DNA of 64,000 nt from the NCBI GenBank assembly GCA_038884755.1, contig JAWABJ010000001.1:493947-557946 (forward strand), read 5' to 3'. The position numbers were made by a program, and so were the translations under genes. The stretch is from Candidatus Norongarragalinales archaeon. Lineage in GTDB: Archaea; Micrarchaeota; Micrarchaeia; Norongarragalinales; Norongarragalinaceae. Numbering within the stretch: the stretch's first letter is position 1; every line of letters begins with the position of its first letter. The notes under the pieces were generated by a model, which had not been told where the DNA came from, made no database searches, and worked only from the letters and a program-made list of their open reading frames with translations. Of the stretch, positions 146 through 62,741 are shown in pieces.

Positions 146-265
146 GCGGAGGTCGCATAGTGGCTATTGCGGCAGCCTGCTATCTTTGCTTTTTTGCTGA
201 AGAAGTAAGGCGGCCAGCTGTTACTCCGATTTTGGGGTGCGCGGGTTCGAATCCCGCCCTCCGCG
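146..265 (+). tRNA. tRNA-Ser (anticodon GCU), type II with long variable arm, 33-nt intron at canonical 37/38 position (183-215)
   Basis: Acceptor GCGGAGG (146-152) pairs with CCTCCGC (258-264); T-arm GCGGG-TTCGAAT-CCCGC (241-257); anticodon stem GCAGC/GCTGT; loop C-T-GCT-A + intron + A; 19-nt variable arm (222-240); discriminator G265; no encoded CCA. Mature length about 87 nt. Confidence 0.75.
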
Positions 266-273
266 CTCTAGAA

Positions 274-46770: not shown

Positions 46771-47269
46771 CCTTTCCCGCCCTCTCTTTAAAACCGTTTA
46801 TTTTTACGTAAAACACTGCGTTCCCGCGCTCGTCATTAAAACTAACGCCTTTCGAGCTTAAAACCATTTTCAGCCCTATGCCCTTGCCCCGGCCGCTTTC
46901 GAAACCCGACAGTTCGAGAATCTTTTCCCCCTGCGGGTCTTGCGCCTCCGCTTGCGCGACTGCGCCTACGCGTTCGTTTTCCCCCTTCAAAACCTGAAAC
47001 CCGCCCAAAAGCACTTCGGGGTAAAGCCACCCTCCCTCGACGTCCAGGAAATTAAGCGAGTAGGGGCTGCCGTGCTTTTCGTAAACGAAAACCGCCCGCG
47101 AAAAGCCTTTTTCCTGCATGCGCGACGCTATCTCGACAACGCTGCGTTTTCCGCGGTTTTCGTACTCCCCGCCGAACAAGCGGGCGAGCCACTTCGCCAG
47201 AGTACGCGTCTGCTGCGTGGGCTTTCGGGATGTGGAAACGTACAACATTTGGTGAATCAGCTCTTTCAC
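46760..47269 (-). CDS. Brix-domain ribosome-biogenesis protein (archaeal Imp4/Brix family)
   Basis: Characteristic N-terminus LYVSTSRKPTQQTRTLAKWLARL; true start may be the internal Met (about 47248). Confidence 0.65.
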   Translation of the reverse strand: MKELIHQMLYVSTSRKPTQQTRTLAKWLARLFGGEYENRGKRSVVEIASRMQEKGFSRAVFVYEKHGSPYSLNFLDVEGGWLYPEVLLGGFQVLKGENERVGAVAQAEAQDPQGEKILELSGFESGRGKGIGLKMVLSSKGVSFNDERGNAVFYVKINGFKERAGKVEG

Positions 47270-48141
47270 TTTTTTCTAGGTTTTTTCTTTCTCAAGCCTA
47301 AAAAACATTCAAGGTCTTCCCTGACTTTCTTTATTTTAAGGTAGTTTTCAAGCCTTATGGTTTGAGTGCGGTATTTCACGAACTTTGGGAATTTCAGCAG
47401 CTCGGCTCCCGAAACAGGGTGTGTGGCAAACTCTTGCTTGTCAACCAAACCTTTCGTCTTCAGCCAGTCGTGCAAACGCCAGGCCGTAGTCCTAGGAATT
47501 ATCGTTGGGTCGTCCAATTCTTCAAAAAAAACGTGGTTTGCATGCCCAAGGTGTGAAAGCCACTTTTCGAACGCGGGCTTGTCCAAGGGCATTTCACTTC
47601 CCTCAGGCCCAACGACAGTCTTAGGCACGTAATTGTGCACTTTCGAACCCGCTTGCACTAATACTGAAGGAAAGCCCTTGTCAAAATGCGCGTCGAGAGC
47701 CTGTTTGAAATTCAAGCCGAAAATCCGTTCGGCTTCGCCGCGGGTGTAAAAGTTTTCCTTCAAGAACTCTTCCAACTCCCTTCGCGCTTTTATTTTTTCT
47801 ACTATGCTTTCGTGCACGAACTTGTTTTTCTTCGAGCGAACTATAGCAACTTTAGCGGCTTTTCTTTGAGACTCAGTCATGTCTCGCGCGGGATCTTGAA
47901 AGTCGGTTCCTGAACGCCTTTCAAACTCAGGATAAATTCCCTTTTCAAGCTGGCTTGAAAGCATTTTCATTCCACCTTGCAAGCCCGCCCTTTGGGCTGC
48001 TTCGCTTAGGGTAATCCATTCGTCGTCCGGTTTTTCACGAAGTTCGGCTCTTATCTTTGCAGCCTTTTCTTCTGCAGGTGCTTTAGCCCGCGCGTGCAAT
48101 ACTGCGAACTTCCTGCCTAAACGCAAAGGAATTGAAAACAC
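47266..48141 (-). CDS. Hypothetical protein (291 aa), basic C-terminal tail
   Basis: No recognisable motif; lies between the Brix gene and tRNA-Ser(UGA); co-oriented with the pfdB-pcc1-brix string. Confidence 0.5.
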   Translation of the reverse strand: MFSIPLRLGRKFAVLHARAKAPAEEKAAKIRAELREKPDDEWITLSEAAQRAGLQGGMKMLSSQLEKGIYPEFERRSGTDFQDPARDMTESQRKAAKVAIVRSKKNKFVHESIVEKIKARRELEEFLKENFYTRGEAERIFGLNFKQALDAHFDKGFPSVLVQAGSKVHNYVPKTVVGPEGSEMPLDKPAFEKWLSHLGHANHVFFEELDDPTIIPRTTAWRLHDWLKTKGLVDKQEFATHPVSGAELLKFPKFVKYRTQTIRLENYLKIKKVREDLECFLGLRKKKPRKK

Positions 48142-48174
48142 TGCAAAAACACCGTACGATTGAATTTTTCAAAG

Positions 48175-48372
48175 CGCCGGAGGAGAGATTCGAACTCCCG
48201 AGTCCTTGCGGACACTGGTTACCTTTCCCTGCCTTGCCTTTCTTTTTGTAAAAAGAAAGGCGGAGGCACCGCGAAAGAAAAACACTAGGTTTCTTTTCGG
48301 TCGCCTGCATTTTCTTTGCCAAAGAAAAGGCGGGCTTCAAGACCAGCGCGATAACCACTCTGCCACTCCGGC
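48175..48372 (-). tRNA. tRNA-Ser (anticodon UGA), type II, with an unusually long ~115-nt intron at 37/38 (plus-strand coordinates 48221-48335)
   Basis: On the minus strand: acceptor GCCGGAG/CTCCGGC, D-arm GCA-GAGTGGTTAT-CGC (one A.C mismatch), anticodon stem CTGGT/ACCAG, loop C-T-TGA-A + intron + A, 15-nt variable hairpin TGTCCGCAAGGACTC, T-arm GGGAG-TTCGAAT-CTCTC, discriminator G. Mature length about 83 nt. Confidence 0.7.
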
Positions 48373-48420
48373 TTTGCAACAAAATAATGCCAGAGGGAAT
48401 TAATAGGCGTTTTCGAAAGC

Positions 48421-50085
48421 TCAAAACTCGCGCGAAGCGAAAATGCGCCCTACGAGAACCAGCCCGAACAAAACGGCTATTGACAGTCCGGCAAGCCCTA
48501 ACGCTGAGTAGCCCCAAAGCAATGGCGGGATTTGCGCGGCGACCAGCAGCGAGCTTGCGACTATGAGCGCGGCAACGATGAGCGAAAGCGAAACTTTGTT
48601 TATCGTCCGGTCCAGCTCGGAGATAGGCTCGTGCAAGCCGTAGTGCTGGATGTTCAGGCTTAGGTTTCCCTGTTCAGCCCTTCCCAACACGCCGGAAAAC
48701 TGTACGGGAATCTTGGAGGCTGCTTCGGCAATCTCGTTCAAGCTCGACCACGATTTTTTCAGCACGGTCAAAGGCTTTTTCCGCTCTTCAACCAGCCCTT
48801 TCACGACGGGCTTCGCCACCTCGATGGTGTTGAACTGGGGGTAGAGCTTGCGTCCTATGCCTTCGAGCGTCACGAGCATGCGCATCAAAAGCATGCTCTT
48901 GGGATGCATGCGCACTTTGTACTCGCGCACGATGTCAGTCAAATCGCGTATGACCTCATCCAAGTGCATTTGCGAAATGGGGACGTTGTAATATTGTTCT
49001 ATGACTTCGCCCAAGTCTTCCCTGAACGCGGAAACGTCGGCGTCTTTGGGTAACGCACCTACTCCCATGAAATAATCAACAAGTTTTTCAGTGTCTTTCT
49101 CGATGAGGGAAATGAAAAAGTCGGTGGTGGTCTCGCGCGTTTTCGAGTCGATGAAGCCCATCATGCCGAAATCGACTACGCCTATCCCGTCGTTTTTCAT
49201 CACTATTATGTTGCCGTAGTGCGGGTCGGCTTGGAAAAACCCGTGCACCAAAACCTGCTTTACGAGCGAGCGCGCTCCCGCCTCCACGATTTTTTTCCTC
49301 CTCTGCAGGGGGTAAGGCTGGATTTGCAGGAGCTTGACGCCCTCGATGTGCTCTTCAACCAAAACACGGCGGGTGCAGTATTCCGGGTAAACCAAGGGGG
49401 CGTAAACTTCACCGTCTCCCTCGAAATTCTTCCGGAATTTTATCGCGTTGCGCATTTCGTGGAGGAAGTCAAGCTCGCGGCGCAGGTTTTTGGCGAAGTC
49501 CTGTACTATTTCGGTTGGGGTGTAAAAGCGGGATTCGGGAAAGTTGCTTTCCAGGAATCCGGCCAAGTCAAGCAGGACTTGCAAGTCGGACTCTATTTTC
49601 ACGGTTATGTTGGGGCGCTGGACTTTGATTACCACGCGCTTGCCGTTGTGCAACGTGGCTTTATGCACTTGGGCTATGCTTGCGGAAGCAAGAGGTTTTT
49701 CTTCAATGTGCTTGAAGATTTTCGAGTAATCGCCGTACTCTTCGCGCAGAACGCTTTTCACGGTTGCAAAAGAAACCGGATTTACCTCGTCCACGAGCTT
49801 TTCCAGCTCGCGAATGACGTCCGGAGGGAAAAAGTCGGTGCGAGTTGCAAGCAACTGCCCCAGCTTTACGAAAGTAGGGCCCAAGTCTTCCAAAGCCCGT
49901 CTCAAGCGTATTCCAACAGGCGTTTTCTGCCTCGGGGGGAAAAAGCGAAGCGCCAATTCCCGCAACGGGCCTTTTTGTTGGGCTGAGGCGATGAACTCGT
50001 CAAAACCGTGGGAGGCGAAAACACCCGCGATTTCCCTTACTCTCCGAAAGTTCTTGTACTCCCTGGAAAACGGAATTTCGACCAT
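48421..50085 (-). CDS. ABC1/UbiB-family atypical protein kinase with C-terminal TM helices
   Basis: ABC1/ADCK signature region (VIKVQRPN...FFQADPHYGNI...DFGMMG) and C-terminal hydrophobic segment. Confidence 0.8.
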   Translation of the reverse strand: MVEIPFSREYKNFRRVREIAGVFASHGFDEFIASAQQKGPLRELALRFFPPRQKTPVGIRLRRALEDLGPTFVKLGQLLATRTDFFPPDVIRELEKLVDEVNPVSFATVKSVLREEYGDYSKIFKHIEEKPLASASIAQVHKATLHNGKRVVIKVQRPNITVKIESDLQVLLDLAGFLESNFPESRFYTPTEIVQDFAKNLRRELDFLHEMRNAIKFRKNFEGDGEVYAPLVYPEYCTRRVLVEEHIEGVKLLQIQPYPLQRRKKIVEAGARSLVKQVLVHGFFQADPHYGNIIVMKNDGIGVVDFGMMGFIDSKTRETTTDFFISLIEKDTEKLVDYFMGVGALPKDADVSAFREDLGEVIEQYYNVPISQMHLDEVIRDLTDIVREYKVRMHPKSMLLMRMLVTLEGIGRKLYPQFNTIEVAKPVVKGLVEERKKPLTVLKKSWSSLNEIAEAASKIPVQFSGVLGRAEQGNLSLNIQHYGLHEPISELDRTINKVSLSLIVAALIVASSLLVAAQIPPLLWGYSALGLAGLSIAVLFGLVLVGRIFASREF

Positions 50086-62658: not shown

Positions 62659-62741
62659 TTTCAAACACTCTTCCAGTCTTTCTTCATTTTGGTTTTTTCG
62701 TACTGAATTTTCTTTTTTCCAAAAAAAAAAAAGAAAATTCT

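What the first reader, a model, noticed from the sequence alone, without database searches (positions are those of the whole stretch)
48175..48372. tRNA-Ser(UGA) interrupted by a ~115-nt intron built from three U3CU3/A3GA3-type palindromic hairpins
Exons fold into a canonical type II tRNA-Ser, but the intervening sequence at 37/38 is about 115 nt, far longer than typical archaeal tRNA introns. It holds two perfect 9-bp palindromes (TTTTCTTTG-C-CAAAGAAAA at about 48310-48328 and TTTCTTTTT-GT-AAAAAGAAA at about 48239-48258) and a third imperfect one (about 48272-48299), all with the same arm motif. No box C/D motifs were seen. This could be a structured intronic RNA, a protein-binding array, or a remnant insertion.
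Basis: seen in the sequence. Interest (0 to 1): 0.6.

Follow-up and report, generated by a model that had tools for sequence, protein, structure and literature searches.

The report
Long hairpin-built intron in archaeal tRNA-Ser
This is a real serine tRNA gene of a tiny groundwater archaeon (Micrarchaeota) interrupted by a 115-base intron of the ordinary archaeal bulge-helix-bulge type; the length and the three look-alike hairpins are one variant of an intron that ranges from 0 to 159 bases in relatives, so it is a curiosity of intron evolution, not a new kind of RNA.

Summary
A tRNA-Ser(UGA) gene lies on the minus strand at 48372-48175, split at position 37/38 by a 115-nt intron (48335-48221). 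The intron holds three U3-5CU3-5/A3-5GA3-5 hairpins and a small GCGG/CCGC hairpin. Neighbouring proteins are identical to those of a 'Candidatus Norongarragalinales' (Micrarchaeota, DPANN) genome assembly.

The exon-intron junctions can form a relaxed bulge-helix-bulge (BHB) splice motif. There are no box C/D motifs and no Rfam match. A TATA-like box is conserved upstream.

About 30 orthologous tRNA-Ser(UGA) loci carry introns of 0 to 159 nt at the same site.
- Relatives whose exons differ by at most 2 of 83 nt have 0, 47-48, 123, 134 or 159 nt; a 58-nt intron sits in exons a few substitutions further away.
- These introns are built from overlapping subsets of the same hairpin modules.
- Compensatory changes keep hairpin 1 paired.
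- No module is universal, and intron-less alleles exist.
- One relative has no 37/38 intron. It carries a 144-nt T-loop intron whose core matches this intron best in inverted orientation.

Verdict: an ordinary BHB tRNA intron belonging to a lineage-specific, modular and possibly mobile intron family. Splicing was not tested. It is a new member of a known kind, of modest interest.

The parts
48175..48372 (-). Complete tRNA-Ser(UGA) gene (pre-tRNA of 198 nt; mature tRNA of 83 nt plus CCA, which is not encoded)
   Evidence: Rfam RF00005 at 34.3 bits. ARAGORN with intron search calls tRNA-Ser(tga). Orthologs have the same exons.
48336..48372 (-). Exon 1, tRNA positions 1-37. The anticodon U34 G35 A36 lies at 48339-48337. 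The D stem carries an A12.C23 mismatch that several orthologs share.
48221..48335 (-). Intron of 115 nt at the canonical position 37/38
   Evidence: The self-match fixes the coordinates.
48175..48220 (-). Exon 2, positions 38-73: long variable arm, T arm and discriminator G73
   Evidence: It is identical in L019, L022-L031 and L042.
48303..48335 (-). Hairpin 1 (intron nt 1-33): GCC-C-GC-C-UUUUCUUUG / CAAAGAAAA-U-GC-A-GGC. It starts at the first intron base. Its 5' bases CCCGCC can instead pair with the 3' tail to form helix h' of the splice motif.
   Evidence: the repeat finder pair I2. Homologous in L025-L030, with 4 compensatory pairs. Alternative pairing appears in the constrained fold.
48273..48298 (-). 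Hairpin 2 (intron nt 38-63): GAAAAGAAA-CCUAGUG-UUUUUCUUUC, imperfect with one bulged A
   Evidence: Homologous in L019 and L025-L030; in L025-L030 the loop carries an insertion.
48260..48272 (-). Small GC hairpin (intron nt 64-76): GCGG-UGCCU-CCGC. It overlaps the base of hairpin 3 by two bases.
   Evidence: The stem is conserved and the loop varies in L019, L025-L030 and L017.
48236..48261 (-). Hairpin 3 (intron nt 75-100): perfect 12-bp palindrome GCCUUUCUUUUU-AC-AAAAAGAAAGGC
   Evidence: Conserved in L019 and L025-L030; L022 and L042 keep the same arm motif, with one 5' arm and two copies of the 3' arm.
48221..48235 (-). 3' tail AAGGCAGGGAAAGGU. GGCAGGG (48227-48233) pairs with the intron 5' CCCGCC to form helix h'. 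AAAG (48223-48226) pairs with C32 U33 U34 (G35 faces A) as the central helix H. G and U (48222-48221) plus A38 form the 3' bulge that holds the 3' splice site.
   Evidence: Hand register plus the constrained fold. The tail contains about 10 nt (GCAGGGAAAG) that relatives lack; they end ...GGCAAG-NN. The tail resembles the 3' end of the L017 T-loop intron.
48399..48406 (-). TATA-like box CTATTAAT, 27-34 nt upstream of the mature 5' end. It is the putative archaeal promoter of the tRNA gene.
   Evidence: Read from the sequence. CCTATTAAT-like sequence sits at the same distance in L019, L022, L031, L037 and L042. Promoter function is inferred.

Best explanation
This is an intact tRNA-Ser(UGA) gene of a Norongarragalinales (Micrarchaeota, DPANN) archaeon. 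An ordinary protein-spliced archaeal intron of 115 nt interrupts it at the canonical position 37/38.

Proposed mechanism:
1. The pre-tRNA is transcribed from a TATA-box promoter.
2. The intron folds on itself into three or four hairpins.
3. That folding brings its two ends next to the anticodon loop.
4. C32-U34 pair with AAAG near the intron 3' end to form the central helix. The intron's 5' CCCGCC pairs with GGCAGGG to form the outer helix.
5. The two splice sites then sit in bulges, giving a relaxed bulge-helix-bulge motif.
6. The tRNA splicing endonuclease cuts both bulges, a ligase joins the exons, and the intron is released, probably as a circle, and degraded.

The hairpins have no conserved job of their own. 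They are lineage-specific modules of an intron family that has gained, lost, duplicated and inverted such modules. Pairing is kept because a long insert must stay compact and must not interfere with tRNA folding.

Shown here: the gene, the intron position, the hairpins, the potential to form the motif, the intron family and the covariation. Inferred: transcription, cleavage, ligation and the fate of the intron.
For: - Two tRNA predictors agree on the gene.
- Host identity: the flanking UbiB-family and Brix-like proteins are 100% identical to proteins of an NCBI 'Candidatus Norongarragalinales archaeon' assembly, on a 714-kb contig.
- With the cloverleaf enforced, the minimum-energy fold pairs C32-U34 with the 3' tail and CCCGCC with GGCAGGG, which is BHB-like.
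- The RNAalifold consensus of six family members recovers the anticodon stem, a 3-nt 3' bulge, a 4-bp helix (CUUG/CAAG), hairpin 1, the GC hairpin and hairpin 3.
- 97.7% of cells are paired, and 6 pairs show double changes against 1.6 +/- 0.9 in shuffles (0 of 500 shuffles reach that) and 0 in the slid controls.
- Hairpin 1 shows C-G, A-U and G-C at one pair and a shifted C-G pair on both arms.
- The unusual central helix of 3 bp plus G.A recurs in an independent lineage, L037-L041. The L017 T-loop intron has 3 bp plus G.G.
- Orthologs carry introns of 0-159 nt at the same site. Exons that differ by 2 nt or fewer carry 0 (L031), 47-48 (L022-24, L042), 115, 123, 134 or 159 nt.
- An upstream TATA-like box is conserved.
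- There are no C/D boxes and no Rfam family in the intron.
- Literature: the Micrarchaeota (ARMAN-2) epsilon2 endonuclease cleaves strict and relaxed BHB motifs at 37/38 and 59/60 (PMC3239211). Excised Haloferax tRNA introns are circularised (PMC7714728).
Against: - The central helix has only three Watson-Crick pairs; the fourth position is G35.A. It is therefore not a strict 3-4-3 motif.
- RNAfold prefers a register with a 2-nt rather than a 3-nt 3' bulge.
- The intron's 5' bases can instead extend hairpin 1, which competes with helix h'.
- In unconstrained folding, intron and exon sequences mispair.
- There are no RNA data, and no endonuclease gene was located, because only 64 kb of the genome is available.
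- The 3' module is 70-87% identical between lineages whose flanks are about 45-65% identical. Together with the covariation, this hints at more constraint than pure filler would need.
- T5 runs inside the intron could terminate archaeal transcription early.
Confidence: 0.78

Rival explanations
1. The intron, or its modules, is or derives from a mobile sequence. It spreads between splice-competent sites in tRNA genes, as proposed for the transposed introns of Thermoproteales, or it is a tiny palindromic DNA element that can sit in either orientation. This concerns the intron's origin and is compatible with ordinary BHB splicing.
For: - L017, a relative whose tRNA-Ser(UGA) exons differ at about 10 positions, has no 37/38 intron. 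It has a 144-nt intron in the T loop (between positions 57 and 60) with a well-formed motif and an 8-bp helix h'.
- The core of that intron matches window intron nt 54-106 in reverse complement: score 48 against 23 forward, with a shuffle maximum of 24; 63 against 32 when long gaps are allowed; z = 15 against 3.8.
- Its 3' tail GCAAGGCAGGAAAA matches the window tail in the forward orientation.
- The two target sites are alike: CUUGAA|A and UUCGAA|U.
- Modules are shared in a mosaic pattern. L019 combines the 5' module of L037 with the 3' modules of L025-30 and the window.
- Precedent: intron transposition in Thermoproteales (Fujishima et al. 2010, as cited in PMC4090602 and PMC4033280).
Against: - There is only one case at a different position.
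- The sequence is rich in palindromes, so part of the reverse-strand similarity is automatic. The non-palindromic flank decides the orientation.
- No further copies were found in the other 64 kb of the window or in about 270 kb of related loci.
- The two other intron-containing tRNAs seen, Ser(GCU) in the window and Arg(CCG) in L017, have unrelated introns.
- There is no transposase and no clear target duplication.
- An ancestral long intron with differential loss, plus a local inversion between the inverted-repeat arms, could explain most of the mosaic.
Confidence: 0.3
2. The excised intron is a functional structured RNA. It could be, for example, a stable circular RNA or a scaffold that binds a protein through the repeated homopurine/homopyrimidine helices.
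For: - Hairpin pairing is maintained by compensatory changes.
- A mismatch at pair 4 of hairpin 1 is conserved.
- The 3' module is better conserved than the flanking intergenic DNA.
- The intron folds better than shuffles (z = -2.9).
- A functional intron-borne RNA has precedent: the box C/D RNA in the Haloferax tRNA-Trp intron (PMC7714728).
Against: - No module is present in all family members. The L037 intron shares only the AAAG splice helix with the window intron.
- Alleles of 0 and 47 nt sit on the same exons.
- There is no Rfam match and no C/D box.
- Covariation is equally expected if the only constraint is compact folding for splicing.
- Only 6 distinct sequences were compared, and 3 of them are close.
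Confidence: 0.12
3. The gene is a disrupted or decaying copy (a pseudogene), and the insert is debris that is not spliced.
For: The Rfam score is modest (34.3 bits). The D stem has an A12.C23 mismatch. The central splice helix has a G.A mismatch. The window has a 10-nt insertion in the intron tail that relatives lack.
Against: - The cloverleaf, U33, the T loop GUUCGAAUC, the long variable arm and G73 are all intact.
- A12.C23 is shared by L007, L009, L014, L016 and L020.
- The G.A-type helix recurs in L037-41.
- The 10-nt insertion supplies both a new helix H strand and helix h'.
- The promoter box is conserved.
- Exon 2 is identical to that of relatives whose neighbouring proteins are only 60-75% identical.
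Confidence: 0.04

Closest known systems
Archaeal bulge-helix-bulge pre-tRNA introns at position 37/38, cut by the tRNA splicing endonuclease EndA. In Micrarchaeota this is the three-unit epsilon2 enzyme of ARMAN-2 (PMC3239211).
   Same: The host is a tRNA gene and the intron sits at the canonical position. The anticodon-loop bases pair with the intron 3' end, both splice sites lie in bulges, and the phylum is one known for heavily interrupted tRNA genes and relaxed motifs.
   Different: The intron is 115 nt, and up to 159 nt in relatives, against 13-25 nt for the ARMAN-2 substrates that were tested. The central helix has 3 pairs plus G.A. The interior is built from repeated U-run/C/U-run hairpins.
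The Haloferax volcanii tRNA-Trp intron: 103 nt, carries a box C/D guide RNA, and is circularised after excision (PMC7714728)
   Same: It is an archaeal tRNA intron longer than 100 nt at the anticodon loop.
   Different: Here there are no C or D boxes and no Rfam match. The content is not conserved among orthologs, whereas the Trp intron's guide function is defined by its boxes.
Transposed tRNA introns of Thermoproteales (Fujishima et al. 2010, as cited in PMC4090602 and PMC4033280)
   Same: Related intron sequence is found at a canonical site in one tRNA gene and at a non-canonical site in another. Here these are 37/38 in the window and the T loop in L017.
   Different: Both hosts here are orthologs of the same tRNA in different organisms, not different tRNAs of one genome. 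Only one such case was seen, the shared core is inverted, and the phylum is different.
T-loop (59/60) introns of ARMAN-2 tRNAs (PMC3239211)
   Same: L017 and L007 carry T-loop introns with BHB motifs at about the same position.
   Different: This applies to relatives only. The window gene has a single intron, at 37/38.

Membership tests
Archaeal BHB pre-tRNA intron | Removing the insert leaves a complete tRNA cloverleaf | tested here: met
   The spliced product is an 83-nt type II tRNA-Ser(UGA) with G73.
Archaeal BHB pre-tRNA intron | The splice sites lie in two bulges flanking a short helix formed between exon and intron (relaxed motif, as accepted by (alpha-beta)2 and epsilon2 endonucleases) | tested here: met
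   Anticodon stem; bulge G,U|A38; C32-G, U33-A, U34-A; loop G35,A36,A37|G1 facing one A; CCC:GGG followed by GC:GC. The family consensus gives the same layout.
Archaeal BHB pre-tRNA intron | Strict 3-4-3 hBHBh' motif (required by alpha4 and alpha2 endonucleases) | tested here: not met
   The fourth pair of the central helix is G35.A. Most relatives do have the full CUUG/CAAG helix.
Archaeal BHB pre-tRNA intron | Orthologous genes with and without the intron share the same exon junction | tested here: met
   L031 and L005 lack the intron, and about 25 other loci have one at 37/38.
Archaeal BHB pre-tRNA intron | The genome encodes a splicing endonuclease and a ligase | not testable with these tools
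   Only 64 kb of the 714-kb contig is available, and no such gene was sought or seen in the stretch examined. Presence is inferred from the phylum (PMC3239211).
Archaeal BHB pre-tRNA intron | The intron is actually excised and the exons ligated | not testable with these tools
   No RNA data are available.
Intron-borne box C/D guide RNA (tRNA-Trp type) | C box RUGAUGA and D box CUGA with a guide sequence | tested here: not met
   No C box (up to 1 mismatch allowed) and no CUGA in this intron or in its relatives with an intron at 37/38; the L017 T-loop intron has one near-C-box (GTTATGA) but no D box. No snoRNA family appears in the Rfam scan.
Transposed or mobile BHB introns (Thermoproteales type) | Similar intron sequence at different positions or in different tRNA genes | tested here: inconclusive
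   There is one case: the L017 T-loop intron, matching in reverse complement at z = 15. The two other intron-bearing tRNAs seen show no similarity. Whole genomes could not be scanned.
Self-splicing group I or group II intron | Catalytic core structure | tested here: not met
   No Rfam intron family was found at E <= 10 in the locus or at E <= 0.5 in the window. At 115 nt the insert is too short.
Miniature inverted-repeat element (MITE) | Multiple dispersed copies with terminal inverted repeats and a target duplication | tested here: not met
   No other copy was found in the window or in about 270 kb of related loci, and there is no clear target duplication. L017 does have terminal inverted repeats, UGCCUUGC/GCAAGGCA, but these double as helix h'.

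The most novel reading that the evidence does not exclude
The U-run/C/U-run hairpin modules may be a previously undescribed class of small, self-propagating intron building blocks in Micrarchaeota. On this reading they move, duplicate and invert at the DNA level between splice-competent sites of tRNA genes (the anticodon loop in this genome, the T loop in L017). Alternatively or in addition, the excised, probably circular, multi-hairpin intron may be a stable RNA with a function of its own.
Probability: 0.15. Interest if true: 0.6.

Novelty: new member of a known kind. Interest (0 to 1): 0.36.

Why it matters
Annotation. Default ARAGORN finds no tRNA at all in this 64-kb window, and Rfam misses the second intron-bearing tRNA-Ser(GCU). 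tRNA counts, which are used as a quality criterion for genome assemblies of DPANN archaea, will therefore be too low unless intron-aware searches with generous length limits are used.

Evolution. Orthologous introns of 0 to 159 nt, built from shared hairpin modules, give an unusually clear series of how an archaeal tRNA intron grows, shrinks and perhaps relocates. One member lies in the T loop with its core inverted. The mechanism of intron gain in archaea is still open, as stated in PMC4090602. If the modules prove mobile, this lineage would be a second case, independent of Thermoproteales, in which to study it.

Otherwise the feature is an ordinary spliced intron.

Tried and rejected
- **Synteny through the upstream UbiB-family gene.** The relatives L001-L004 (76-87% identical protein) have other genes and no tRNA after UbiB, so this route failed. 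An exact look-up of the window's UbiB protein also found nothing.
- **Synteny through the downstream Brix-like gene.** This worked.
- **Box C/D guide RNA.** No boxes were found.
- **Any known RNA family in the intron.** Only chance-level microRNA matches appeared, and nothing else in the window.
- **A genome-wide palindromic repeat or terminator family.** Homopurine-arm hairpins are almost confined to the tRNA-Ser(UGA) introns in about 336 kb scanned. BLAST of three family introns found no dispersed copies, and no terminator-like site lies at the locus.
- **Viral contigs.** An exon pattern and a hairpin pattern hit only unrelated phage tRNA clusters without introns.
- **An alternative splice motif using the ancestral CAAG at 48233-48236.** I rejected it, because it would leave a 13-nt loop instead of a 3-nt bulge and would give a non-functional product (read from the sequence).
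- **The 291-aa ORF next to the tRNA.** It has no Pfam or PHROG family above threshold, so there is no evidence for an integrase or mobile-element cargo.
- **A coding role for the intron.** The 144-aa ORF spanning the tRNA (48083-48517) is taken as spurious.
- **Literature.** Searches for tRNA introns in Micrarchaeota, DPANN or Norongarragalinales found no description of this intron family.

Full report
**What is at the locus**

On the minus strand, 48372-48175 encodes a tRNA.
- Rfam's tRNA model matches end to end at 34.3 bits (gathering score 29), with a 117-nt insertion in the anticodon loop.
- ARAGORN with default settings finds no tRNA in the whole window. With intron search it calls tRNA-Ser(tga) at c[48174,48372] with a 115-nt intron at 37/38.
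- Exon 1 is 48372-48336, the intron is 48335-48221 and exon 2 is 48220-48175.
- The spliced product is an 83-nt type II tRNA. It has U33, anticodon UGA, a 4-bp variable-arm stem, the T loop GUUCGAAUC and discriminator G73. CCA is not encoded.
- The one blemish is an A12.C23 mismatch in the D stem. L007, L009, L014, L016 and L020 share it, while other orthologs have A12-U23. It is a tolerated polymorphism, not a sign of decay.
- The intron boundaries cannot slide, because the flanking bases differ (read from the sequence).

**The hairpins**

In RNA sense the intron reads: GCCCGCC UUUUCUUUG G CAAAGAAAA UGCAGGC GACC GAAAAGAAA CCUAGUG UUUUUCUUUC GCGG UGCCU CCGC C UUUCUUUUU AC AAAAAGAAAGGC AAGGCAGGGAAAGGU.
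Hairpin 1 spans 48303-48335 (16-nt arms, two mismatches). Hairpin 3 is a perfect 12-bp palindrome at 48236-48261. Hairpin 2 (48273-48298) needs one bulge.
- A fourth small hairpin, GCGG-N5-CCGC, lies at 48260-48272.
- The intron folds at -41.4 kcal/mol against -30.7 +/- 3.7 for shuffles.
- No C or D boxes are present. No Rfam family matches. No terminator-like site is found.

**Host organism**

The neighbouring UbiB-family and Brix-like proteins are 100% identical to proteins of an NCBI assembly named 'Candidatus Norongarragalinales archaeon', on a 714-kb contig. The surrounding genes (aEF-1alpha, S10, prefoldin) are archaeal. Norongarragalinales is an order of Micrarchaeota (PMC8561730). That phylum contains ARMAN-2, whose tRNA genes are heavily interrupted and whose epsilon2 splicing endonuclease cuts both strict and relaxed BHB motifs at 37/38 and 59/60 (PMC3239211).

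**Splice motif**

In the canonical register the junction reads as follows.
- The anticodon stem 27-31/39-43 comes first.
- It is followed by a 3-nt bulge, G114,U115|A38.
- The central helix is C32-G113, U33-A112, U34-A111, with G35 facing A110.
- Then come A36,A37|G1.
- An outer helix follows: C2C3C4:G107-109 plus G5C6:G104C105, with A106 bulged.
- With the cloverleaf enforced, the minimum-energy fold forms both the central and the outer helix, shifted by one base to give a 2-nt bulge.

This is a relaxed motif, not a strict 3-4-3 one. The same 3-bp + G.A central helix (AAAG) occurs in an independent lineage, L037-L041, so it is evidently tolerated. The L017 T-loop intron has 3 bp + G.G. Cleavage itself is inferred, not shown.

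**Relatives**

Three routes brought in about 30 orthologous tRNA-Ser(UGA) loci:
- a degenerate exon-1 pattern scanned against species-representative genomes;
- a narrower pattern scanned against JGI metagenomes;
- contigs found through homologs of the downstream Brix-like protein.

| Intron length at 37/38 (nt) | Loci |
|---|---|
| 0 | L005, L031 |
| 22 | L014 |
| 32 | L006, L012 |
| 42-45 | L018, L015, L009 |
| 47-48 | L022-24, L042 |
| 54-55 | L011, L008 |
| 58 | L037-41 |
| 83 | L020 |
| 93 | L016 |
| 99 | L013 |
| 115 | window |
| 118 | L010 |
| 123 | L019 |
| 134 | L026-30 |
| 159 | L025 |

L007 has a second intron in the T loop. L017 has no 37/38 intron but has a 144-nt T-loop intron. 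The window intron is therefore long, but it is neither the longest nor unique.

**A modular intron family**

- L019, L022-L031 and L042 have an exon 2 identical to the window's. Their exon 1 differs at no more than two positions, while the adjacent Brix-like protein is only 60-75% identical.
- Their introns are mosaics of shared modules.
  - Hairpin 1 occurs in the window and L025-30.
  - Hairpin 2, the GC hairpin and hairpin 3 occur in the window, L019 and L025-30.
  - A hairpin-3-like unit occurs in L022 and L042.
  - A GC-rich 5' hairpin occurs in L019 and L037-41, with a weaker match in L010.
  - L025 has an extra hairpin.
  - L025-30 have a roughly 20-nt insertion in the loop of hairpin 2.
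- The window has about 10 extra bases (GCAGGGAAAG) after the ancestral CAAG. These supply its present central-helix strand and its outer helix.
- No module is present in every intron, and L031 carries none on the same exons. No intron-borne element can therefore be essential.

**Pairing is nevertheless kept**

- In hairpin 1, four of 15 pairs show compensatory double changes among four distinct sequences. One pair is C-G, A-U or G-C. The single C-G pair moves by one step on both arms. The loop-closing pair is G-C or U-A.
- In hairpin 3, the U run and the A run shorten together.
- On the six-sequence alignment, RNAalifold recovers the anticodon stem, the 3-nt bulge, the central helix, hairpin 1, the GC hairpin and hairpin 3.
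- 97.7% of cells pair. Six pairs have double changes, against 1.6 +/- 0.9 in shuffles (0 of 500) and none in the slid controls.
- The sample is small and three of the sequences are close, so this supports the hairpins but proves no function.
- The 3' module is 87% identical between L019 and L025/26, and 70-72% identical to the window. The flanks are about 45-65% identical, leaving aside the comparisons with L025, whose upstream flank is cut to 13 nt by the contig end.

**An inverted relative in the T loop**

- L017's T-loop intron has a clean motif: T stem; U54-A, U55-A, C56-G, G57.G; bulges AA|A and AA|U; and an 8-bp outer helix UGCCUUGC/GCAAGGCA (hand register).
- Its core matches window intron nt 54-106 in reverse complement. 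The score is 48 against 23 forward, with a shuffle maximum of 24. It is 63 against 32 when long gaps are allowed, and z = 15 against 3.8.
- The orientation is decided by the non-palindromic flank: the U5CU3 arm and the GC hairpin lie 5' of hairpin 3 in the window and 3' of it, complemented, in L017.
- L017's 3' tail, GCAAGGCAGGAAAA, matches the window's tail in the forward orientation.
- The two insertion contexts are alike: CUUGAA|A and UUCGAA|U.
- This resembles the intron transposition inferred for Thermoproteales (cited in PMC4090602 and PMC4033280). It is, however, a single case in a palindrome-rich sequence. Inversion between the inverted-repeat arms plus relocation is one of several possible histories.
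- No other copy of the modules was found in the window or in about 270 kb of related loci.

**Conclusion**

The feature is a genuine tRNA-Ser(UGA) gene with an ordinary protein-spliced archaeal intron at the canonical site. It is unusual only in its size and its repetitive hairpin make-up, and it belongs to a lineage-specific, fast-changing intron family. The most likely role of the hairpins is structural: they keep a long insert compact so that its ends can form the splice motif. A function of the excised RNA, or mobility of the modules, is not excluded, but neither is needed to explain the data.

Noticed in passing
window 146-266 (+): A second intron-bearing tRNA, tRNA-Ser(GCU), has a 33-nt intron at 37/38. 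Only ARAGORN with intron search calls it. Rfam's tRNA model does not report it, even in a local scan. Its intron is unrelated to the 115-nt one.
   Followed up: partly
window 62705-62740: A perfect 14-bp hairpin, GAATTTTCTTTTTT-8 nt-AAAAAAGAAAATTC, lies in the gap between two minus-strand ORFs. It has the same U-run/C/U-run flavour as the intron arms. Its function is unknown.
   Followed up: partly
window 47266-48141 (-); L022 2037-3004; L037 2746-3727; L031 1723-2970; L025 458-2848: The DNA just 3' of tRNA-Ser(UGA), before the conserved Brix-like/Pcc1/prefoldin block, holds different genes in each lineage. The window has a 291-aa ORF with no Pfam or PHROG family above threshold. L022-24 and L037-41 have a nucleotidyltransferase/HEPN pair. 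L031 has two ORFs and L025-30 have a 796-aa ORF. L019 and L042 have nothing there. It looks like an insertion hot spot next to a tRNA gene.
   Followed up: partly
L007 (JACRGC010000013.1), tRNA starting near 2159: This tRNA-Ser(UGA) has two introns: about 36 nt at 37/38 and about 42 nt in the T loop. The T-loop intron forms a canonical UUCG/CGAA helix and a 3-nt bulge in the constrained fold.
   Followed up: partly
L017 160-308 (-): A tRNA-Arg(CCG) with a 72-nt anticodon-loop intron sits next to the tRNA-Ser that carries the T-loop intron. Long introns seem common in this lineage.
   Followed up: no
L013 5245-5265 and 5336-5356: Two identical hairpins, TTTTTCTTC-GGG-GAAGAAAAA, lie 91 nt apart just upstream of that genome's tRNA-Ser(UGA).
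   Followed up: no
L031 about 1608-1626: The intron-less allele has a hairpin, GTCTTTCT-AAAA-AGAAAGC, about 25 nt downstream of the tRNA. It resembles hairpin 3 of the intron family. This could be coincidence.
   Followed up: no
window 48278-48282 and 48250-48254 (intron nt 54-58 and 82-86): The long introns of this family contain runs of 5-6 U. Archaeal RNA polymerase is known to terminate at oligo-T tracts (my own knowledge), so the intron might lower full-length pre-tRNA output. This was not tested.
   Followed up: no
L006 and L012: Contigs labelled Bathyarchaeota carry a tRNA-Ser(UGA) whose exon 1 differs from the window's by only about 3 nt. Their 32-nt intron has a perfect CUUG/CAAG helix. 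This may reflect strong conservation or a binning error.
   Followed up: no
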